Shown in pieces: positions 14,889 to 52,446 of a stretch of DNA of 64,000 nt; within the stretch, counting starts at the first letter, position 1; the number at the start of each line of letters is the position of its first letter. Source of the DNA: Eledone cirrhosa (lineage: Eukaryota); assembly GCA_964016885.1 (NCBI GenBank), contig CAXHJY010001714.1, forward strand, positions 62,001 to 126,000. Reading direction: 5' to 3'. The notes under the pieces are model-generated. The model had not been told where the DNA came from and did no database searches. It saw only the letters and a list, made by a program, of their open reading frames with translations. A program made the translations under genes and the position numbers.

Positions 14889-17800
14889 ATCATCATCATC
14901 ATCATCATCAACGTTTAACGTCCGTGTTCCACGTTTGCATGGGTTTGGATGGGAGTTTTCCCACTTGAGGCAAGAGTGATTGTCTTGCTCGCATAGGACT
15001 GTCTGGCAGGTTTTCTACAGTTGGATGCCCTTCCTAACACCAACCACATTTACAGTGTGGGGCTGGGAGGTTTTTACCGTGTTGCCTACACGGCCACATT
15101 ACAGTGTGGACTGTATGTTTTTTTGTCGTGACACCTACACGATCTCATTTGTTTCGGCCTGGATGGTGTGGAACCAACATAACTTTACATAGAAGGGGCC
15201 GGTGTGGATGGGGTGGGGGTGGTGGGACGGGGGCGTATTTTGTTAGAGATGCCTACTGACTGTAGTAGGTTTTACTATGTATTTAGGTAAGGCGGGTCTT
15301 CTCTATTACTGAGTACCGCCAAAGGTCTCGGTCCAGTGACATTGTCTTGGAGAGGTGTAAGTGTGTGAGGTCGGAGTTTATCAGCTCGTCCCAGGTTTTT
15401 CTAGGTCTGCCTATTCCGTGGCTACCATCTATCTTTATTGCCCTGCACTTTGTTATACAGCTATCGACTTTCATGCGCATCACGTGTCCATACCAACGTA
15501 GCCTTCTCTCGAGTAAACAACATCTGATCCCTCTTATTTCTAATTTTTTCCTTAGTTCGTTTATGCTTTGCCGTTCACGTATATTACTATTACACATCCA
15601 GCGGAGCATGCAAGCTTCGTTCCTCTCTAGTCTGCATATATCCTCTGCACACAATGCCCAGGTCTCACTGCCATGCAACATTGCTGTTCGTATGCAGGCA
15701 TCATACAACCTGCCTTTCATTTTTAGGGAGAACCCTTTAGCGGCTAATAGTGGTATAAGCTCTCTGAACTTTTTCCATCCAGTTCTGACTCTAGCTACTG
15801 TACTTTCAGAGCACCCTCCCCCACTGCTGATTTTGTCACCCAGGTAACGGAAGCTATCCACTATTTCTATAGAGCCCTCTGCGCAGTTGAAAGAGCTAGT
15901 ATTTTGTGGGCACTTGCTGCTACTTATTACACCAGAGCACCGGCCACATGTGAAATCTATGTTCTTAGTTAGCTTACCTGTGATCCCACTACATCTTTTA
16001 TGCACCCATACTTTGCATTTCTGACACAAAATGGAGTTTCTACCTACGCCTTTCCTACACACTGAGCATGGCCACTTCCCGGAAGGGACCGCCGCCTTAT
16101 TTTCTTTCCTACAAACTAGAACTTTGGTCTTAGCCAGGTTAATTTTAAGGCCTTTTGATTCTAGGCCGTGCTTCCATGTTTGGAATTTCTTCTCTAGCTC
16201 GGCCATTGATTCAGCTATGAGTGTTAGGTCGTCTGCGTATAGGAGTTCTCATGGGCAGCCGGTCTTGAACTCCTCTGTTATAGCCTGAAGGGCAATAATA
16301 AATAGTAGGGGGCTGAGAACAGAGCCCTGATGGACGCCAACTTTTACGCTAAACTCTTCACTATATTCGTTGTTAATTCTAACCTTGCTGACTGTTTCTT
16401 TATACATGGCTTGTATAGCTCTCACAAGCCATTCGTCGACACCTAGTTTTCTAAGAGCCCACCAGATAATGGAACGGGGGACTCTGTCGAAGGCTTTCTC
16501 CAAGTCGACAAAAGCTAAGTAAAGGGGTTTACTTTTAGCTAGGTACTTCTCCTGTAGTTGTCGTACAATGAAAAGAGCGTCTGTGGTACTTTTGCCTGAC
16601 ACAAACCCGAACTGCATTTCATCTAGGTCAATTCTCTCTCTGATTAGTTGCGCTATTACTTTTTCCGTGACCTTCATGACCTGGTCGATTAATTTAATGC
16701 CTCTATAGTTACTCCTATCTAGGGCATCTCCTTTACCCTTATAACAGTTAACGATGATGCTGCTATGCCAGTCCTTCGGAACAACTCCATTCTGTACGAC
16801 TTGGTTAACTATCCGGGTGACCATGGTGTGTCCCACCGTGCCAGATGCCTTCAGCATCTCAGCAACTATTTCCGAAGGCCCAGCTGCCTTACCCGTCTTC
16901 ATATCCTTGATTGCCTTACTTATTATACTACCCTCAACTAACACTGCTGGTCCCTCTATTGGGTCAATGTGGGGGAGACTGTCTTTCTCCCATTTATTCT
17001 CCTCATTTAGTAGCCTTTCATAGTGACACTTCCAAGCTACCTTCTTATCAGCGTCGGTGATGGCAAGTACGCCGTCATCATTAAGTACACACTTCTCCCC
17101 GACAATATCACGGTTTTCCTTGACACATTGCCTAGCAATCCTGAACACCTCACGTTTTTGGTCCTCGTGTTGTAGAACATGCTTGAACTTTCTTTCCTCT
17201 GCTTCCCTTCTTGCGAAGTACACTTGTCTCCTAGCTTCCCTCCTGGCCACTTGATAGTCTTCTCTACTTCCCCCATCCCGCCATACTTTCCAAGCCTGCT
17301 TTTTGGCCTTAATTGACCCCTCCACCTTACTGTTCCACCACCATGTTACTCTCCTCCTGCCTACAGGCCTGCTCCAGCCACAGACTTCGTCTGCCGCCAT
17401 CAGCAGGTTTGCTTTCAGGAATTCCCACTGCTCCTCTATATTGTACGACTCTAATTGCTCTTCCTTACTGTCGAAAGCATCAAGTAGTATGCTTTTAAAT
17501 TTATTTCTGGCTGTGGGGTCCTTTAGCTTCCATATTTTTCTCCTGAGGATAGTCCTCTTCAGTTGTCTAGTACGTCTCGTCCTGACTATTAGGTCGCTAA
17601 TTATCAGTCTATGTTGGGAGGTGCATTCTTCATGGGGGAGGGATTTAGTGTTTACAACAGACACTCTGTCACGTCTTCTGGCAAGGATATAATCTACCTG
17701 GCTTGTGTGTTCCCCGGATCTATAGGTGATCAGGTGATTGTCACGTTTTTTGAAGTTAGTGTTACAGATAGTTAGGTTATTTGCGTCACAGAATTCCAGG

Positions 17801-19158
17801 ATTCTGGAGCCTTCCTCATTTCTAGTACCAAACCCATAGCCTCCATGGATTTCGTCGTAGCCGTCACAATGTTGTCCAACGTGACCATTTAGGTCGCCTG
17901 CGATAATTATATAGTCACTGTCGGTTATTTGGGAGGTAGCGAGCATCAGTGTCTCATAAAATCTGTCTTTTATAGTGCCGGGCAGTCCGGATTGGGGTGC
18001 GTACGCAGATATTACTGTCACCGTAGTTCTATTGAGGACAAGTCTTATTTTAATTATTCTGTCGTTCACTCTATTTACGTCTATTATCTTATCTGCCCAC
18101 TTTTCTGCTACCATGATTCCTACTCCACCCAGCCCATCGTCATTTCCCACCCAGAAAAGCTTATAGCATCGTTTTTTACCCTCAATGAATCTAGCAGACC
18201 CACCCCTCCACCTGGTCTCTTGAATACAACAAACATCGACCTCCTTACGTTCGAGCATTTCTACAACCTCGTTAGAGCGACCCTTTAAGGTGCCTACATT
18301 CATGGTACCAACTCTGAAGTTTTGGATTGCGTTTGGAGGGTGGGAGCGGTGGGGAGCGGGGGGAGATGGGGTTATGTTAGCCATCCGCGGCCGAAACAAA
18401 GGGGAGTGCTCGCATTCTCGTCCACGAGGTGAATTTGTCTTTATCTTTGGCATTGTCGCTGAGCGTCCAGATTTTTCGCTCTTCCACTCTCCAGAATTCC
18501 GTAGTCCATCCATCCATCATATATCGAAAGGCAACCAGGCAAGCGATAGTATAGGCCTCTGGCTCATGATTGGTCCACGTAATAATAATGGTGGTGCGTG
18601 GGGGCGGGCGGGAGAGGTGTTGGGTAGATAGCGAGATGGTAAGGATTGAATGAGGTCCTCGTATTTAACAAGCGATAACAAAAATACAAGATTTGTTTTG
18701 TTTAATACGACAAAAACCCTCGTATTTAACAGGCAATAACAAAAAATACAGATTTGTTTTGGGAAATACGACAAACTACATTAGGATTTGGCAAGATTGG
18801 AGGGTTGGACTGGATACGAATGGAGTGTGGAAATGGTAGAAAAATGTGTACATTACGTTACATGATATACCGTGAAGAAAGCAGCGATGAATTTGGCGAA
18901 TGTGATTTACTTGAAGGGTTTATCTTATATATATATATAGATAGAGAGGGAGAGAGAGAGAGAGATGGGGAGGGGGGGGGATAGGTTTGGCCGCATGATG
19001 TAGATATTGGGGTGGCTGACCGCGAGCCCTCATGAAGTAGAGGGAGGGGGAGAAGATAGTAGGAGCGGGAGTTTAGAGTTTTCGAAGTAACAAATATATT
19101 TAAAAGAATTTATAAGAAGAAGAAGGGTTTTGTTTTGTTTTGAAAATACGATACGATA

Positions 19159-35179: not shown

Positions 35180-36121
35180 CAGTGGCAGACTGGGTGTAAA
35201 AAAATTATTGGTTGCCAGGAGACGAAGGGGACCCACTACATATAGAATGTTATCATTTAATTTTTATAATGAACTAGCATTAAAGCCCGTCGTTGCTCGG
35301 GGTCATTAAGTTACCAAAGTTAGGTTGCACCACCCATTTTATGGCAGCACTTTTTTGTCTGCCAGGCACTGGGTGAATGAATTGCAGACCTGGAAGCATG
35401 AGCTGCGCCAGCAGTGACAATTGTAGTTTCGCCTATGGATATTATCTCTGTGCAAAAAAGTGTTGAAATTTATTGTTTCACAGTACTTGCGCAACACGCG
35501 CGTAGACGATGCCAGCCGAACAACAGAGCTGCGATGGAGTTGTTCTGCATGGTTGTCTGCGTGTTTTCTAAATTTAAGACAGTAGGGAGAGTTGTGATAT
35601 GAGGGAGAGTTAGCTGTTGTTTCTAGCAGGTTTAGTGACCTCATAGAGGATATGTGTTTTCTAAATTTTTAGCAGTATTAGTTATAGATGTTATCGAGAT
35701 ACGAGTGACATAATAATGATTTCAACAGCAGAAATTAGAGAGGAAATATACGTTTTATTTTTGATGTAGCACAAACAATGGTGTGGTACAGAGGCTGGTT
35801 TCTTGCGTGTGATCAGTCGGCTTTCCAGTGGCTGTCTGTCTTTTCTTTCTCGCGTTCTCAACCGGCGTTGTTCTATCAAGGGGCGTGAGGCGTCTTACTA
35901 CAGTACCTCGAGCCAGATTTTCAAATTATCGAAAATCGATGTCATTACTCACATGTGGAGTAAGATGGCGAACAATGCAACAAGGGGGAGCTATTCGCTC
36001 TAACAAAAATTGAATCCAGAATAAGGATTTGAAAAATGTTTAAAAAAACAAACAACATGCATGCATAAAAAAAACAAGGCAAAGAAAAAACAGAAACACA
36101 GAGGCAAAAAAAAAGGTGCAG

Positions 36122-37432
36122 CTAACATAGTCTAAATATAGACGGTGCTGCAAAATTTTTTGGGCCAGTGGTCGTGGTCTTGTAACGTGGCGATTGAGGT
36201 GGTGTAGGGACAGGCGATGATGGTGGTTCAGGAACAGGCGTTCGCTCAACAGGTAAATACGAAGGGGTTCGTGGATCAGGAACCACAGCGTCCGTGTCAA
36301 GGTGCGCCTGCTTAAGCCTGTCTATTGTAACTGTCTCCCTGGACCCCTTAATATCTAACGTGAAATGCTTAGCCGAGCGCGCTAAGACACGGTAAGGTCC
36401 AGTGTAAGGCTGTGTGAGCGGGAGCTTCACAGAATCTTTCCTTACAAAGACATGCGTCCACGAGGCAATATCCCTCGGGACAGCAGTCTTGACAGTTTGT
36501 TTCCTAGTGTCCATTGGCGGCAAATCCTGGAAATAGGAGCGCAAACGGGACACGTAGGAAGCGTGATCTTGGGCATCAAGATCGATAGGGGCAAGCATTT
36601 GCCCGGGCAACGTCAGAGGGGCACCGTACAGTACTTCGGCCGGTGAAAATCCAAAGTCGACCTTCACCGTTGACCGAATCCATAGTAGCACAATAGGGAG
36701 GTACTCGCTCCAATGCGCCGAGTCCATTGCGGCCATTAAGGAGGCCTTCAGTTGTCGGTGAAAACGCTCCACCATACCATTCGAAGCGGGATGGTACGCC
36801 GTAGTTCTAATGCGTTTAGCACCAATTAATTTTGACAGCTCGAGGAAAAGGCTCGACTCGAACTGTCGTCCACGGTCGGTAGTTATTGTGGATGGAACTC
36901 CATAACGAGAGATCCATCCAGACACAAGAGCACGTGCTGTTGTCTCCGCGGTGATGTTTTTCAAGGGGATGGCCTCAGGCCATCTCGAAAAACGGTCAAT
37001 GACGGTCAGCAGATAAGAAAAACCATCGCTGACAGGCCAAGGTCCGACTATGTCAATATGAATATGTGAAAAACGCGCATCTGGATTAGCAAAGGTACCC
37101 AGGGGAGCCTTGACGTGTCGATGGACCTTTGATCTCTGGCAAGCGACGCAGGAACGGCACCAAGCAGCAATTTCACGCCTCATATTTGGCCAGAAAAATC
37201 TAGCTGATATGAGCTTTGCTGTGGCAGAAGATCCTGGATGCGAGATACTATGTAATCCCAGAAACACGGTCCGACGATGATTCTCTGGAACGAAGGGCCT
37301 AGGCACGTCCAAAGAGACGTCGCAGAGAATTTGGCCAACTGCAGTCGACAGAGGCAAGTATTTCATCTCGCAATTCGCAAATTTCCGATGTGTGGTGGTT
37401 GGCGTCGGTAAGGCTATGAAGCTGCCACTCAC
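36122..37432 (-). CDS. Ty3/Gypsy integrase (HHCC, D,D-35-E, GPY/F), uninterrupted
   Basis: H-x3-H...C-x2-C; HIDIVGP; TTDRGRQF with E exactly 35 residues later (NGMVERFH); PYTGPY. The ORF-track start is GTG; the first ATG is codon 23 (MKYL). Confidence 0.9.
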   Translation of the reverse strand: MSGSFIALPTPTTTHRKFANCEMKYLPLSTAVGQILCDVSLDVPRPFVPENHRRTVFLGLHSISHPGSSATAKLISARFFWPNMRREIAAWCRSCVACQRSKVHRHVKAPLGTFANPDARFSHIHIDIVGPWPVSDGFSYLLTVIDRFSRWPEAIPLKNITAETTARALVSGWISRYGVPSTITTDRGRQFESSLFLELSKLIGAKRIRTTAYHPASNGMVERFHRQLKASLMAAMDSAHWSEYLPIVLLWIRSTVKVDFGFSPAEVLYGAPLTLPGQMLAPIDLDAQDHASYVSRLRSYFQDLPPMDTRKQTVKTAVPRDIASWTHVFVRKDSVKLPLTQPYTGPYRVLARSAKHFTLDIKGSRETVTIDRLKQAHLDTDAVVPDPRTPSYLPVERTPVPEPPSSPVPTPPQSPRYKTTTTGPKNFAAPSIFRLC

Positions 37433-37655
37433 TATTCCCTGTTTTGGTCAGTGGCTAAACAACGCTGTCGCTGCTGCTGTCGTTGTTGTTGGTAGCCATC
37501 TTGAAATTTTTTCGTGGCGAAAAAGTTTTCGAAATACTGCTAATTTTTCAAAAAATTTTGAAAGGAATATATTTTATTTTCGCAAGCTACGAAAAAGGTT
37601 GGCAACGTGGCAATAAAAGTTCAACTGAATGAAAAAGAAGGGCTGCGTTAAATTC

Positions 37656-37672
37656 TCACGTCGGGGTCACCA
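37656..37672 (-). promoter_or_regulatory. Primer-binding site complementary to the tRNA-Trp 3' end
   Basis: Plus strand TCACGTCGGGGTCACCA equals the 3' end of metazoan tRNA-Trp including CCA; it lies 1 nt from the LTR. Confidence 0.85.
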
Positions 37673-38253
37673 CTTTAGCAGTATTGTAGAATCAGTGGTC
37701 GTTACTTTAACAGGGTAGATGATTGAAGGTCTTTAGTTGCCAGTGTGGTAAGTGATAGTATCCTCGTTGGATTATCTTGTCGACATAGACGTGAGGGAAG
37801 GTCCCTCGATCTATTTACCATCTATTTACAATATTCCCTTCGTCAGGTCGCCAATTCCAGCAGCATGGATTATAGATGTTATTGAGACACGAGTAACATA
37901 ATAATGATTTCAACAGCAGAAATTAGAGATGAAATGTATGTTTATTTTTGATGTAGTACAAACAATGTTTGTTAACTTATATGGTTGAAGTTACAGATAA
38001 AAAGAGGTTACAAAAGGGAATGTGCCATTGCGCCGTTAAGCCGGTGAGGCTAGGGTGCAAATCTCACCGTTACATTATGCGTGTTGCTGGCTTGAAGTTT
38101 CCGGTACAAGAGAGAGATTCTTCAAATCTTCGCGGGGAATTTCTTCCTCAGGGCGCGTAGGGATACATCCTCTTCTACTGGCGCTGATTGGCTGAACTGA
38201 GCCAAATCACGCACAGAGAATGTATGTGAGCCCGCGGAATGTAGGTCACTATA

Positions 38254-38922
38254 AATTTAAGACAGTAGGGAGTGGTGTGATATGGGGGAGAGTTAGCTGC
38301 TGTTTCTAGCAGGTTTAGTGACCTCATAGAAGATATGTTTTCTAAATTTAAGACAGTAGGGAGGGGTGTGATATGGGGGAGAGTTAGCTGCTGTTTCTAG
38401 CAGGTTTAGTGACCTCATAGAAGATATGTTTTCTAAATTTAAGACAGTAGGGAGGGGTGTGATATGGGGGAGAGTTAGCTGCTGTTTCTAGCAGGTTTAG
38501 TAACCTCATAGAGGATATGTGTTTTCTAAATTTAAGACAGTAGAGAGTGGTGTGATATGGGGGAGAGTTAGCTGCTGTTTCTAGCAGGTTTAGTGACCTC
38601 ATAGAAGATATGTTTTCTAAATTTAAGACAGTAGGGAGGGGTGTGATATGGGGGAGAGTTAGTTGCTGTTTCTAGCAGGTTTAGTAACCTCATAGAGGAT
38701 ATGTGTTTTCTAAATTTAAGACAGTAGAGAGTGGTGTGATATGGGGGAGAGTTAGCTGCTGTTTCTAGCAGGTTTAGTGACCTCATAGAAGATATGTTTT
38801 CTAAATTTAAGACAGTAGGGAGGGGTGTGATATGGGGGAGAGTTAGTTGCTGTTTCTAGCAGGTTTAGTAACCTCATAGAGGATATGTGTTTTCTAAATT
38901 TAAGACAGTAGGGAGTGGTGTG
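38254..38922. repeat. 91/93-bp minisatellite forming a 184-bp dimer
   Basis: AATTTAAGAC at 38254, 38345, 38436, 38529, 38620, 38713, 38804, 38897; one further unit at ~35571-35663. Confidence 0.95.
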
Positions 38923-39352
38923 AACGGACAGTATCACCATCAAGCTTGGAAAGAGAAAGTAGCAGAAAGTATGAAGTTGTATAGATTTTGAATGGTAGTA
39001 GAAAGAGTTCAGCAGTTTAAATGAGAGAAAAATCGTAAAATATTGAGTTTTATCTATTTTTTGCGTAATTGTGGGTGAAATTGAAAAAATTATCTGCGTC
39101 AAGACGCAATCGAAACTATTTCGAATACTGAATTGTAAATTTCAATTGAATAAATTCTATATCGTAAATTTCTATAACGAAGGAGCATGACCATACACTG
39201 AGCTTTATAGATTATGATAAATAACATTTTCAAAAATACATAAGTGGAAAAAAAACAGTGCAATCAAATTTTTGTGGAAAAATATCTTACCTTCTTCAAT
39301 AAAATAAAAAAAATATGTATTTTGCGAAATCGAGAAACTTTCAATAATGACC

Positions 39353-46911: not shown

Positions 46912-49700
46912 TTTAGCAGAGAATGATGTAGTCGCCACTTTAACAGGGTAGATGATTGAAGGTCATTAGTTGCCAGTGTGGTAAGTGATAGTATCCTCGT
47001 TGGATTATCTTGTCGACATAGACGTGAGGGAAGGTCCCTCGATCTATTTACCATCTTAGTATTTACAATATTCCTTTCGTCAGGTCGCCAATTCCAGCAG
47101 CATGGATTATAGATGTTATTGAGACACGAGTAACATAATCATGATTTCAACAGCAGAAATTAGAGATGAAATGTATGTTTATTTTTGATGTAGCACAAAC
47201 AATGTTTGTTAACTTATATGGTTGAAGTTACAGATAAAAAGAGGTTACAAAAGGGAATGTGCCATTGCGCCGAAAAGCTGGCGAGGATAGGGTGCAATAT
47301 CTCACCGTTACATTATGCGTGTTGCTGGCTCAAAGTTTCTGGTACAAGAGAGAGATTCTTCAAATCTTCGCGGGGAATTTCTTCCTCAGGGCGCGTAGGG
47401 ATACATCCTCTTCTACTGGCGCTGATTGGCTGAACTGAGCCAAATCACGCACAGAGAATGTATGTGAGCCCGCGGAATGTAGGTCACTACATCACCTCCG
47501 AGCAGATTTTCAGCCGAAAATCGATAACGAAGAAACCAAGGACCCACATATTGAATCAGCAAGAACAAATGCTGAAAGCGCACATCAGTGAAAAAATAAT
47601 TGAGCAGAAAGATTCATGCAAGAACAAAAAAAATTAGGCGTGACGGGCCGTGTTGAGCCGCTGTCAAATGACTAGCTGTCTTGTAGTTTAAACGAGACCC
47701 TCAAGGTCCTACCAGAAAACAGATAAAGTCTGACATGGGCGAAGTTGCTGTTCTTGCATTAAATGTTAATGGTAAGCGTTGTACCAGTAGCTGTGAACGA
47801 AGCTATTATGGTAGTTTACCAGTACTGGCGAGAAAATGATGGCCCCCAGATGTATTGTCGAATGTGCTGTGGAGCCAGGAAAAAATGGCTGGTTGCTTTG
47901 TAAAGAAAAAAAAAAAAAGCAAGTTTAATCTGTAGGTGGGTTGCAGTGTAAATTCCATAATTCGGGCGAATCCACAGAAGTGGCCGAAATGCTGACAAGT
48001 CCAGTTCAATTTGTTGCTTTCCCAGCGAGTCGGGCAAAAACAACAAGACGGATGGCCGTCATGGACGATCAGTGTGCAACGAGATGCGAAGCTGTTTGAA
48101 TTCAGCTGCAATTAGTATTCTCGTGTTGCGGTGCCTGTTTGAATCCAGTGGATTAAGCTCTGTGAGCTGCTAGCATGTGACAGCACCTCAACCAGGTGAA
48201 AAGGGACTCGCAGAATATTACGTTTGAAGAACATATACCAAGAACAACATGTTGGTGTGTGATAAAAAAATGTGTGCATATGCAGGCATGTAAAACAGCA
48301 AAGAATGTGAATGAACAAAAACCATGAGCAAGCAAATAGCAAAAGAGCACAAAACAAGTAAATGCATTCTACAAAGAAATATGTGAATGTAAGAAACTGA
48401 TAATTCAAAGTCAATCTAAGGGAGCAGAGAAATTGCTCAATAAGTTCAAAGTTTTTCAAAGTCAAATAGTTCACACATCACCAGTGTACAGACACTAGTT
48501 CTATCTGAAAACTGAAAAAGAAGTCTGTTAATGCCGTTAGGGGTTAGATGTATGGTGTTTTTGAGAGTTTTCGTGGCCATTCCACCGTCTTGCCACCCTG
48601 TATGACATAAGGTTTTGTTGTTAAAGCAAAGTCAATGAACCTTCTGAAGAGCAGCAGTCAAGCGATGAAGAACCCAGAGTCCAACATGGCAGCCACTTCT
48701 GACGCCATAATGGTGAGAAAACTACTGTCTCAATTTCTCGAGTCCCTGTGGTAACGAGACAGAAGGTATGGTGGTTGCGTCGGTAAAGTTACAAGCCGTT
48801 TTGAAATTTCCGATGTGTGGTGGTTTGCGTCGGTAAGGCTATGAAGCTGCCACTCACTATTCCCTGTTTTGGTCAGTGGCTAAACAATGTTGTCGCTGCT
48901 GCTGCTGTCGTTGTTGATCGTAGACAGGACCTGTCGGTAGACATTTTGAAATTTTTATGAAGTCGTGGCGAAAAGTTTTTGAAATACTGCTAATTTTTCA
49001 AAAAATTTTGAAAGGAATATATTGTATTTTCGCAAGTTGCGAAAAGGTTGGCAACGTGGCAATAAAAGTTCAACTGAATGAAAAAGAAGGGCTGCGTTAA
49101 ATTCTTACGTCGGTCACCACTTTAGCAGAGAATGATGTAGTCGCCACTTTAACAGGGTAGATGATTGAAGGTCGTTAGTTGCCAGTGTGGTAAGTGATAG
49201 TATCCTCGTTGGATTATCTTGTCGACATAGACGTGAGGGAAGGTCCCTCGATCTATTTACCATCTTAGTATTTACAATATTCCTTTCGTCAGGACGCCAA
49301 TTCCAGCAGCATGGATTATAGATGTTATTGAGACACGAGTAACATAATAATGATTTCAACAGCAGAAATTAGAGATGAAATGTATGTTTATTTTTGATGT
49401 AGCACAAACAATGTTTGTTAACTTATATGGTTGAAGTTACAGATAAAAAGAGGTTACAAAAGGGAATGTGCCATTGCGCCGAAAAGCCGGCGAGGATAGG
49501 GTGCAATACCTCACCGTTACATTATGCGTGTTGCTGGCTCGAAGTTTCTGGTACAAGAGAGAAATTCTTCAAATCTTCGCGGGGAATTTATTCCTCAGGG
49601 CATGTAGGGATACATCCTCTTCTACTGGCGCTGATTGGCTGAACTGAGCCAAATCACGCACAGAGAATGTATGTGAACCCGCGGAATGTAGGTCACTACA
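46912..49700 (-). mobile_element. Non-coding (non-autonomous) LTR retroelement, same LTR family as 37674-38253
   Basis: 580-bp LTRs at 46912-47491 and 49121-49700; TSD CCTG/CTTG (1 mismatch); degenerate tRNA-Trp PBS (plus TTACGTCGGTCACCA); 1.63-kb interior with no retro-domain ORF. Confidence 0.9.
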
Positions 49701-50221: not shown

Positions 50222-52446
50222 TGTAGCGCTCTCTAGACTGAAGTTACTTCCCGTTGAGGTTGCAGAACCTTCTTAGGGACTTCCGTCCGAGGGAACTATA
50301 AAGGAGAGAGCCGAAAGCTAACTCCCTCTCATTCCACCTTTCGGCTGCTGGCCTTCGACCAGGCGCGTTCCGCCGAAGGTATACTCTCTCGCTTCCTGAC
50401 CAGTGAAAAGGTAAACAACTAACTTTCTTTCGTCGTGAAATCACTAGCCAACATGTAACACAACAACAATAATCACGGCCAGTGGACCGTGTCTTCTGAA
50501 ATCCTTAATTCATTTTTTCATCTCTCTTGGCATGTCAGCTATTCAGCTCTACACAGCTCAATCTTCGTAAATAAATATTGTACATACAACCCAGTGTCAT
50601 GTTATAATTGGTGACCCCGAGAAAAAAAATAATAGGACATGGTGTTGTGTGAATATAAAAAAAAAAGAAAATTAATTAGCAGTATTTTAAAAAGAAAAAA
50701 TTCCTCTAACACCATTCCGCATGGATTTTTTCTACAATATTCCACATGGATTTTTTCTCTGAAACTGTCTACAACGAAAAATATAAGTAATCTTTTCCTC
50801 AGCAGCAAACAAACAAGAAAACATTTTACTTTTCACCTCACGTGTTTACATCGTTTAAATGTGTTTCAATCACTGGATATATCCTTCGTCCGTCTCACAA
50901 CGAACACTCAAAAAGACTTGGACTCCTGTATTCTAATATTCAACATGTCAATTTTGATGAACATCACAGCTCGCTTACTCATTCAACTAAACCTTTTTCG
51001 CTACTTATTCATCACTTTCAAAAAAAAATTGAACTCTCGCCATACACAAAGTGAATATAGCCTTTCCTTCTTTTTCATCATATTATCACGTTCACACACA
51101 GATTTTTCAAAATGGCTGCCAACGACATGTTGCACTATCATTTTCGTGCCATTTTCTCGCGCAATAGAAATTTTTTTTTCAACTTGACTTTAATCTTGTT
51201 TCGGCAAGTGTGGGAGCACACATCTCGACTCACTGAGATAACACACGCCATAGATAATGTTTCTTGCCAAGGATTCTCCAGCCTTAAGCTATATTCTCCT
51301 ATTTGCCGGTTTAAAAATTTACCACGTAAATTTGCCGTTGAAAACTGCGCATTTATTCAGAATGATTATTTCTATGGTCGCTGGCCTCTTGACCCATCCA
51401 AGTCAACGCGCTCTCAACATCGACCATCAACTTTGGCTGTTATTTCTAGCACTTTGCGCAACTCATTTTTTCTGGGAAACTTTTTACTGTGAATGGAAAC
51501 AACATCGAATAGGCTCACTCTGCGAGACAACAACAACACAGCTTCATCTTTGCTTTATCAACAACCAAAACCAGCAGAACAAAACACAGAGAATTTATTT
51601 TTGCAGCACTCTTCCTGTGAGAAAATCCCACCGCTTTCGGTGGTTGGGAATTTTACGTTGTACCACAGTCCAGAAACCACCTGCATATATTCTCTTGGTG
51701 ACACATTCTCTTTCCTGCTGTCATGTTAACTTTATTTTTGAACATTTGAACTTTTTTTTAATAACTATGTTCGAGCACGTTTCTTTGCTCCTTTGACCTC
51801 TTCTTAGGTTGATTACATTGTATCTTTGTGTGATGGATAGATAGATGTCCAGTCGTTCTCTGGCCAAGAGAGGTTGGCTACCTTGATATCTATCATTAAT
51901 TTTTGCATGCTCATTTTGCTATTTGCTTGCTCATGTTTTGTTCATTCATGTTCTTGTACCGTTTGCCTTGCTCCTGGTGTTCTCGCTACAATGATTTCAT
52001 TTGGTCATTCGACTTCTCGTCTGAGAGGGGAGTCCTGTAGCGCTCTCTAGACAGGAGGTAGCTGGAGTTACTTCCCATTGAGGTTGCAGAACCTTCTTAG
52101 GGACTTCCGTCCGAGGGAACTATAAAGGAGAGAGCCGAAAGCTAACTCCCTCTCATTCCACCTTTCGGCTGCTGGCCTTCGGCCAGGCGCGTTCCGCCGA
52201 AGGTATACTCTCTCGCTTCCTGACCAGTGAAAAGGTAAACAACTAACTTTCTTTTGTCGTGAAATCACTAGCTAACATGTAACACAACAACAATAACCAC
52301 GGTCTGGCAACACTTCAGCCAGTGGACCGTGTCTTCTGAAATCCTTAATTCATTCTTTCATCTCTCTTGGCATGTAAGCTATTCAGCTCTATTCAGCTCA
52401 ATCTTCGTAAATAAATATTGTACATACAATCCAGTGTCATGTTATA
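50222..52446 (+). mobile_element. Second family of non-coding LTR retroelement
   Basis: LTRs 50222-50606 and 52036-52446 (TG...TA); perfect TSD GATA; PBS TGGTGACCCCGA (tRNA-Trp) at 50609; PPT GAGAGGGGAG at 52023-52032; 1.43-kb interior with no recognisable domain. Confidence 0.92.

What the first reader, a model, noticed from the sequence alone, without database searches (positions are those of the whole stretch)
35668..38253. Integrase-only LTR element: leader fused directly to an intact Gypsy integrase
Seen: a 2.6-kb element with LTR, perfect tRNA-Trp PBS and ~300-bp leader, then a stop-free integrase with HHCC, D,D-35-E and GPY/F and an in-frame ATG upstream of HHCC. There is no gag, PR, RT or RNase H. 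The leader matches the non-coding element at 48806-49120 up to ~37379, where IN begins. Established: Gypsy IN is normally cleaved from Pol; integrase-only Ginger/GIN elements lack an LTR+PBS. Inference: either a one-off deletion, or one component of a split retroelement family in which this unit supplies IN in trans.
Basis: partly seen in the sequence, partly recalled or inferred. Interest (0 to 1): 0.75.

Follow-up and report, generated by a model that had tools for sequence, protein, structure and literature searches.

The report
One-off hybrid of two retrotransposon families
This is a single-copy hybrid in which the front end of a non-coding jumping element is joined to the integrase and back end of an ordinary Gypsy retrotransposon, likely through a copying error before insertion, so it is a defective oddity and not a new integrase-only family.

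Summary
The anatomy is real: 35668-38253 (- strand) holds an LTR, a tRNA-Trp PBS, a leader and an open integrase, with no gag, PR, RT or RNase H, inside one 4-bp target duplication (AATT). The 5' LTR (580 bp) and leader come from a non-coding family A (427 motif copies). The integrase and 3' LTR (235 bp) come from a 5.5-kb gag-pol CsRn1-type Gypsy family B. The junction sits on a short microhomology and is single-copy in the 3.0-Gb genome at 0 and 3 mismatches. IN, RT and gag motifs are about equally abundant (141, 153, 125), and no two-LTR gag-RT partner lacking IN was found. Both refuting conditions of the split-family idea are therefore met. The IN tail also carries a private 19-bp frame-shifting deletion. 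Seven other A x B hybrids turned up, each with its own junction, five with a perfect target duplication. This suggests that A and B are packaged together and their cDNAs are occasionally joined before integration. Verdict: a defective one-off recombinant of a known kind; low interest, with a modest mechanistic side finding.

The parts
38254..38257 (.). Target-site duplication AATT, 5' side of the element
   Evidence: removing the element and one copy restores the satellite unit
37674..38253 (-). 5' LTR, type A (non-coding family), 580 bp; second base differs from the family's TG start
   Evidence: 96-97% to the nearest family A LTRs; termini
37655..37672 (-). Primer-binding site, tRNA-Trp type
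   Evidence: motif as printed in PMC2582038 section 6
37382..37654 (-). Leader of family A; holds an upstream ATG at 37499 (14 codons, other frame)
   Evidence: A-type at 29 of 29 diagnostic columns, most of them in one indel block; ATG
37379..37381 (-). A/B junction: 3-bp exact microhomology (TTT), preceded by a 7-bp word shared by both parents at a slightly different spacing
   Evidence: single copy
36122..37381 (-). Integrase part of family B pol (from Pol residue 645); ATG 37366, HHCC from 37252, D,D-35-E about 37054-36769, GPY 36400; private 19-bp deletion after 36172
   Evidence: core 99.3% to the nearest copy
35903..36121 (-). 3' untranslated region of family B, ending at the plus-strand primer position (only weakly purine-rich)
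35668..35902 (-). 3' LTR, type B (gag-pol family), 235 bp, TGT...AAA
   Evidence: 99.1% to the nearest family B LTRs
35664..35667 (.). Target-site duplication AATT, 3' side of the element
46912..49700 (-). Complete non-coding family A element (2789 bp, two 580-bp LTRs 98% alike, target duplication with one mismatch): the type of the left-arm parent, not shown to be the parent itself

Best explanation
The element is a single-copy hybrid whose left arm (LTR, PBS, leader) comes from non-coding family A and whose right arm (integrase, 3' UTR, LTR) comes from the gag-pol Gypsy family B, likely joined at a microhomology during reverse transcription and then likely integrated in one step. Shown: the two parents, the junction, the single copy, one 4-bp target duplication. 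Inferred: A RNA rides in B particles, since both share the PBS, LTR ends, about 110 bp of LTR and an 82%-alike leader. Inferred: a B minus strand that broke off at the start of IN was completed by a plus strand begun on a co-packaged A molecule. A plus-strand or cDNA-level crossover, unlike a minus-strand switch, leaves two different LTRs inside one target duplication. The product is likely a dead-end passenger with no role.
For: Junction pattern 1 hit in 3.0 Gb at 0 and at 3 mismatches; of 40 scored places only the window itself covers both halves of the query. 29 of 29 other LTR-A+leader loci continue into the non-coding interior. 14 of 20 extended IN loci are 5.5-kb gag-pol elements with LTR-B at both ends. 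Motif counts IN 141, RT 153, gag 125. 26 of 33 LTR-B-bounded elements have a perfect 4-bp duplication, with 23 different 4-mers and none AATT, so no site preference was seen. Seven other A x B hybrids among 80 long loci, each with its own junction; five have a perfect duplication, and L033 (CATG) and L103 (CTCA) have an A end at one side and a B end at the other with no copy of this satellite in the locus. TSD-flanked fusions of a partial 5' LTR to pol (L046, L083, L085, L118) look like the premature second-strand transfers described for HIV-1 (PMC12657518).
Against: The insertion lies in a satellite, where two insertions in the same register of different units would mimic a target duplication. 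No other sampled hybrid has exactly this layout (LTR-A first, direct orientation, LTR-B last). Co-packaging is inferred from sequence only. No listed contig or read bridges the junction in the public runs laid, so the joint is not independently confirmed. The 80 loci were partly chosen for missing motifs and give no frequency.
Confidence: 0.72

Rival explanations
1. Post-insertion rearrangement: an A and a B element inserted next to or inside each other in the satellite, and one or two microhomology deletions left the present hybrid.
For: Different outer LTRs are the usual mark of recombination between adjacent insertions (PMC1950507). The satellite could fake a target duplication. The LTR ends share short words that could guide deletions.
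Against: Adjacent insertions would need the same register in a 92-bp unit and the same orientation, with no site preference seen. A nested origin needs two separate deletions ending exactly at LTR termini. L033 and L103 show mixed A/B ends with one duplication outside this satellite.
Confidence: 0.18
2. Assembly mis-join of an A copy and a B copy on this unplaced 157-kb contig.
For: Both parents are high-copy. In the runs laid, the listed pieces follow one parent or the other at 37379-37381 and none bridges the joint.
Against: The target duplication and the satellite register fit at both ends. A 3-bp overlap is too short for an assembler to join on (inference). The runs may be other individuals, and contigs drop rare variants.
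Confidence: 0.05
3. Component or founder of a split retroelement system in which this unit supplies integrase in trans to partners lacking IN.
For: The IN core frame is open with an in-frame ATG, and the element keeps PBS, leader and both LTR ends. Families that contribute only some proteins exist in wheat (Gag-only Sabrina and WHAM, PMC9744471). Three further LTR-bounded IN-only or RH/IN-only derivatives exist (L083, L084, L085).
Against: Single copy. IN is not in excess over RT or gag. Of 27 fetched RT loci lacking the exact IN motif, 24 still carry IN sequence and 3 are fragments or a hybrid; none is a two-LTR gag-RT element without IN. The other IN-only derivatives all have different junctions. 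An out-of-frame ATG precedes the IN ATG. The tail is frame-shifted. Integrase normally enters the particle as part of Gag-Pol (established knowledge, recalled).
Confidence: 0.03
4. A domesticated or Ginger-like stand-alone integrase.
For: Open HHCC-DDE-GPY frame of about 414 aa.
Against: No terminal inverted repeats. 99.3% identical to IN of a young LTR family. Private changes are 0 synonymous and 2 nonsynonymous, too few to show selection.
Confidence: 0.01

Closest known systems
CsRn1-clade Ty3/Gypsy retrotransposons (CsRn1, PwRn1, AgCR; PMC2582038, passages and section 6 read)
   Same: Parent family B has TGT...AAA LTR ends, 4-bp TSD, tRNA-Trp PBS, CHCC Gag, PR-RT-RH-IN order with GPY/F, gag and pol in overlapping frames, about 5.5 kb.
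   Different: The window element keeps only the IN-3'UTR-LTR third of it and has a foreign 5' LTR and leader.
Complex template-switch insertions in Triticeae (Sabot and Schulman 2007, PMC1950507, first half of the text read)
   Same: Two parents fused and inserted with one TSD. L039, L041 and L101 fit that pattern closely: internal LTR, near-identical outer LTRs, TSD.
   Different: Here the parents are a non-coding and a coding family, and the window element has one TSD but different outer LTRs, a combination that the part I read does not list.
Defective proviruses from aberrant second-strand transfer and asymmetric LTRs in HIV-1 (PMC12657518, passages and section 10; PMC9278108, abstract only)
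   Same: Integrated, internally deleted molecules with unequal LTRs that are attributed to plus-strand errors.
   Different: Those are within one virus; here the arms come from two co-existing retrotransposon families.
Autonomous/non-autonomous partnerships: wheat Wilma-Sabrina-WHAM (PMC9744471, passages); soybean LTR swapping (Du et al. 2010, title seen in a reference list only)
   Same: A shares PBS, LTR termini and part of the LTR with B and outnumbers it (427 vs 125-153 motif hits).
   Different: Semi-autonomous wheat elements are high-copy and encode Gag; the IN-only unit here is one copy.
Ginger1/Ginger2 DNA transposons (PMC2836005, passages)
   Same: A Gypsy-type integrase without RT, 4-bp TSD.
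   Different: Ginger has 40-270-bp terminal inverted repeats and no LTR or PBS; this has LTRs, a PBS and no TIR.

Membership tests
CsRn1-clade Gypsy (parent family B) | tRNA-Trp PBS | tested here: met
   against the motif printed in PMC2582038; many copies carry a 2-nt shorter variant
CsRn1-clade Gypsy (parent family B) | Gag CHCC signature CX2HX9CX3C | tested here: met
   13 of 14 full-length copies
CsRn1-clade Gypsy (parent family B) | 4-bp TSD and TGT...AAA LTR termini | tested here: met
   26 of 33 LTR-bounded elements; termini
CsRn1-clade Gypsy (parent family B) | PR-RT-RH-IN order with GPY/F | tested here: met
CsRn1-clade Gypsy (parent family B) | RT phylogeny groups with CsRn1/Kabuki | not tested
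   no reference RT sequences were fetched
Normal LTR-retrotransposon insertion (window element) | Two near-identical LTRs | tested here: not met
   580 vs 235 bp, about 110 bp shared at 89%
Normal LTR-retrotransposon insertion (window element) | One target-site duplication | tested here: met
   AATT on both sides; lies in a satellite, so less informative than usual
Semi-autonomous (split) LTR family (window element) | Several independent insertions with the same internal structure | tested here: not met
   1 hit at 0 and 3 mismatches
Semi-autonomous (split) LTR family (window element) | Partner elements lacking the protein supplied | tested here: not met
   0 of 27 fetched RT loci without the IN motif is a two-LTR gag-RT element lacking IN
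Semi-autonomous (split) LTR family (window element) | Purifying selection on the kept frame after the split | tested here: inconclusive
   0 synonymous and 2 nonsynonymous private changes in 356 codons
Semi-autonomous (split) LTR family (window element) | Expression of the kept frame | not testable with these tools
   no RNA run was available
Non-autonomous non-coding LTR family (family A) | Multi-copy, LTR-bounded, non-coding interior, cis signals shared with a coding family | tested here: met
   427 motif hits; 29 of 29 loci; longest frames in the window copy about 120 codons; shared PBS and termini
Ginger DNA transposons | Terminal inverted repeats of 40-270 bp | tested here: not met
   definition from PMC2836005
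Ginger DNA transposons | Ginger1 CCGG/CCGT target | tested here: not met
   target is AATT

The most novel reading that the evidence does not exclude
The hybrid is the founder of an integrase-only LTR lineage: it keeps PBS, leader, plus-strand primer site and both integrase-binding ends, is transcribed from the LTR of the more abundant family A, makes a free-standing integrase from the ATG at 37366, and is one of several IN-only units (L083-L085) that this family keeps throwing off, a snapshot of the step from LTR retrotransposon toward Ginger-like integrase-only elements.
Probability: 0.04. Interest if true: 0.6.

Novelty: new member of a known kind. Interest (0 to 1): 0.2.

Why it matters
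As it stands it is a defective copy and matters little. The side result is of some use to retrotransposon specialists. Several A x B hybrids with a single target duplication, two of them ending in a U5 end from each family, are likely fossils of co-packaging and inter-molecule plus-strand transfer in an animal Gypsy family. They give physical support for which autonomous family mobilises the non-coding one, a link usually argued only from shared motifs. They also warn that LTR-pair dating fails on such copies. If the IN-only unit were expressed and mobile, it would be a missing step between LTR elements and integrase-only transposons, but nothing found supports that.

Tried and rejected
Expression: no RNA holder listed; this is no evidence either way. 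Laying public runs: X1, X2, X5, X9 on 36900-37900 and X1, X3, X4, X10 on 37320-37440; the listed pieces follow either parent at high depth and none bridges the joint, but contigs drop rare variants, not all pieces are shown and the runs may be other individuals. Splicing as origin of the joint: rejected, no GT donor follows the A leader at the break. Four IN fragments at G000:C2:201.8-202.0 Mb (L086, L087, L138, L139) looked like a repeated IN-only unit; they share 96-99% identical flanks and have no 5' LTR, so they are segmental duplicates. Helenus/Ajax small-RNA TRIMs (PMC10886601, abstract and first part of Results read) were considered for family A and dropped: A is 2.8 kb, and I ran no tRNA or Rfam scan on its LTR. 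Pairwise pN/pS of 0.26-0.65 against 20 copies reflects shared family history, not selection on this copy. Limits of the survey: pattern outputs listed only the first 100 places; I paired the IN, RT and gag lists by eye over the range common to all three (94 IN hits; 79 with an RT or gag motif at the expected distance; all 15 without were examined; 27 of 29 RT hits without the IN motif were fetched). The other 47 IN hits were not paired. Du et al. 2010 and Lauermann and Boeke 1997 are not held, so they are cited by title only. A search for 'integrase-only' with LTR terms showed no occurrence in the 12 papers listed; this is too thin to claim that nothing similar is in print. No supplements were read. 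My guess that the host is a cephalopod is recalled from the look of its repeats, untested and not needed; CsRn1 elements are reported as common in cephalopods (PMC6238403, passages). Earlier-findings look-ups returned nothing.

Full report
Observation. The element spans 35668-38253 on the minus strand and is flanked by AATT on both sides. Removing it with one AATT restores a unit of the 92-bp satellite in which it sits. In element order it has a 580-bp LTR (38253-37674), a tRNA-Trp-type PBS (37672-37655), a leader to 37382, an open frame to the stop at 36122, a 3' UTR and a 235-bp LTR (35902-35668). The frame carries Integrase_H2C2 and rve domains, HHCC, D,D-35-E and GPY. A tblastn with Gag and Pol of one genomic copy finds only Pol residues 644-1060 in the window.

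What was missed. The two LTRs share only about 110 bp at 89%. The 5' LTR is 96-97% identical to LTRs of a non-coding family, here called A; a full A copy lies at 46912-49700. All 29 other loci fetched with this LTR and leader (30 of 40 scored, 1458 candidates) continue into the non-coding interior. The leader is A-type at 29 of 29 diagnostic columns between 29 A and 24 B copies, though most of these columns lie in one indel block. The integrase, 3' UTR and 3' LTR belong to a coding family B: IN core 99.3% and LTR 99.1% to the nearest copies.

Family B. Of 20 IN loci extended (20 of the 29 non-self loci), 14 are 5.5-kb LTR-gag-pol-LTR elements. They have TGT...AAA ends, a tRNA-Trp PBS, the CHCC Gag motif (13 of 14) and PR-RT-RH-IN order. 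26 of 33 LTR-B-bounded elements have a perfect 4-bp duplication. These are the marks given for CsRn1-type Gypsy elements in PMC2582038. I did not build an RT tree.

The junction. A and B meet at 37379-37381 on a 3-bp exact overlap, preceded by a 7-bp word that both parents carry at slightly different spacing. A 57-nt junction pattern (0 mismatches) and a 33-nt one (3 mismatches) each hit once in 3.0 Gb, at this locus. In the DNA search only the window itself, of 40 scored places, covers both halves of the query.

Test of the split-family idea. Exact 20-nt motifs give 141 IN, 153 RT and 125 gag hits, and 427 for the A interior; IN is not in excess. Over the range listed for all three motifs, 79 of 94 IN hits have an RT or gag motif at the expected distance (paired by eye). 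The 15 others were examined: one full-length copy, four 5'-truncated pieces, four segmental duplicates of one fragment, four LTR-B-bounded deletions with different junctions and two A x B hybrids. Of 27 RT loci lacking the IN motif, 24 still carry IN sequence and none is a two-LTR gag-RT element without IN. The window's IN starts at Pol residue 645, 39 residues after the last RNase H motif. An out-of-frame ATG at 37499 precedes its ATG. A private 19-bp deletion after 36172 shifts its last codons, and its private substitutions are 0 synonymous and 2 nonsynonymous, too few to test. The open core is what a young copy would show without selection (inference).

How it likely arose. Normal reverse transcription yields identical LTRs (PMC6894440, passages). 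Recombination between adjacent insertions yields different LTRs but no duplication, and minus-strand switching yields a duplication with matching outer LTRs (PMC1950507). This element has different LTRs and one duplication. The simplest account is one crossover at the plus-strand or cDNA stage between co-packaged A and B molecules, followed by normal integration. Support comes from seven other A x B hybrids among the 80 long loci. L039, L041 and L101 are LTR-B, A interior, near-complete LTR-A, part of pol, LTR-B, with near-identical outer LTRs and perfect duplications. L033 and L103 have an A end on one side and a B end on the other with perfect duplications and no copy of this satellite in the locus. 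L048 and L125 sit in TA repeats and are uninformative. Fusions of a cut-short 5' LTR to pol with perfect duplications (L046, L083, L085, L118) resemble premature second-strand transfer in HIV-1 (PMC12657518), and unequal LTRs in single proviruses are reported (PMC9278108, abstract). The 80 loci were partly chosen for missing motifs, so they give no rate.

Against this reading. The satellite could fake the duplication. No other sampled hybrid has exactly this layout. Co-packaging is inferred. Public runs did not show a bridging piece, so an assembly error is not formally excluded. I put single-copy hybrid at about 0.9 and pre-integration joining at about 0.7.

Comparison and verdict. It works like a defective, internally deleted proviral copy made by aberrant strand transfer. 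It is not a Ginger element (no terminal inverted repeats; definition) and not a semi-autonomous family of the wheat Sabrina/WHAM kind, which is high-copy and encodes Gag. Novelty: new member of a known kind. Interest 0.2, mostly for the set of A x B hybrids, which ties the non-coding family to its likely helper. The boldest reading left open, a founder of an expressed IN-only lineage, has about 4% probability.

Noticed in passing
L039, L041, L048, L101: Hybrids of the form LTR-B, A interior, almost complete LTR-A without PBS, 3' part of pol, LTR-B. Four different pol junctions; outer LTRs 226/226, 221/225 and 234/235 alike with perfect TSDs in L039, L041, L101. Likely a B plus strand that ran over an A minus strand and then joined a broken B minus strand.
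   Followed up: partly
L033 (5314-8571), L103 (5105-8067), L125: Head-to-head hybrids: an inverted 3' piece of A joined to part of B. L033 and L103 end in a U5 end on both sides and have perfect 4-bp TSDs. L033 and L125 break at the same position of the A interior (880), unexplained.
   Followed up: partly
L083, L085, L118, L046, L084, L047, L107: LTR-B-bounded internal deletions, each with its own junction; in four the 5' LTR is cut short and fused to pol; six of seven have a perfect TSD.
   Followed up: partly
L094, L114, L116, L119, L120, L122 and others: An older gag-pol subfamily (interior about 90-93% to B) with a third LTR type that shares about 85 bp with the part of LTR-A missing from LTR-B, so LTR-A itself may be a mosaic. 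L140 and L141 look like gag-only deletions of it.
   Followed up: no
window 50222-52446 (+): A second, different LTR element with a tRNA-Trp-type PBS, LTRs 91% alike and no long coding frame recognised; shares a 57-bp stretch with the interior of family A.
   Followed up: no
window 15283-18516 (-): A LINE with APE endonuclease, RT and a C-terminal PHD finger, interrupted by one stop.
   Followed up: no
window 35560-35667 and 38254-38923: A 91/93-bp satellite with a 184-bp higher-order period; short arrays of it also lie in the segmental duplicates at G000:C2:201.8-202.0 Mb.
   Followed up: partly
L031-L050 and window 49103-49118: Most family B copies and the window's family A copy carry a PBS two bases shorter than the hybrid's; both forms occur in TSD-flanked copies.
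   Followed up: no
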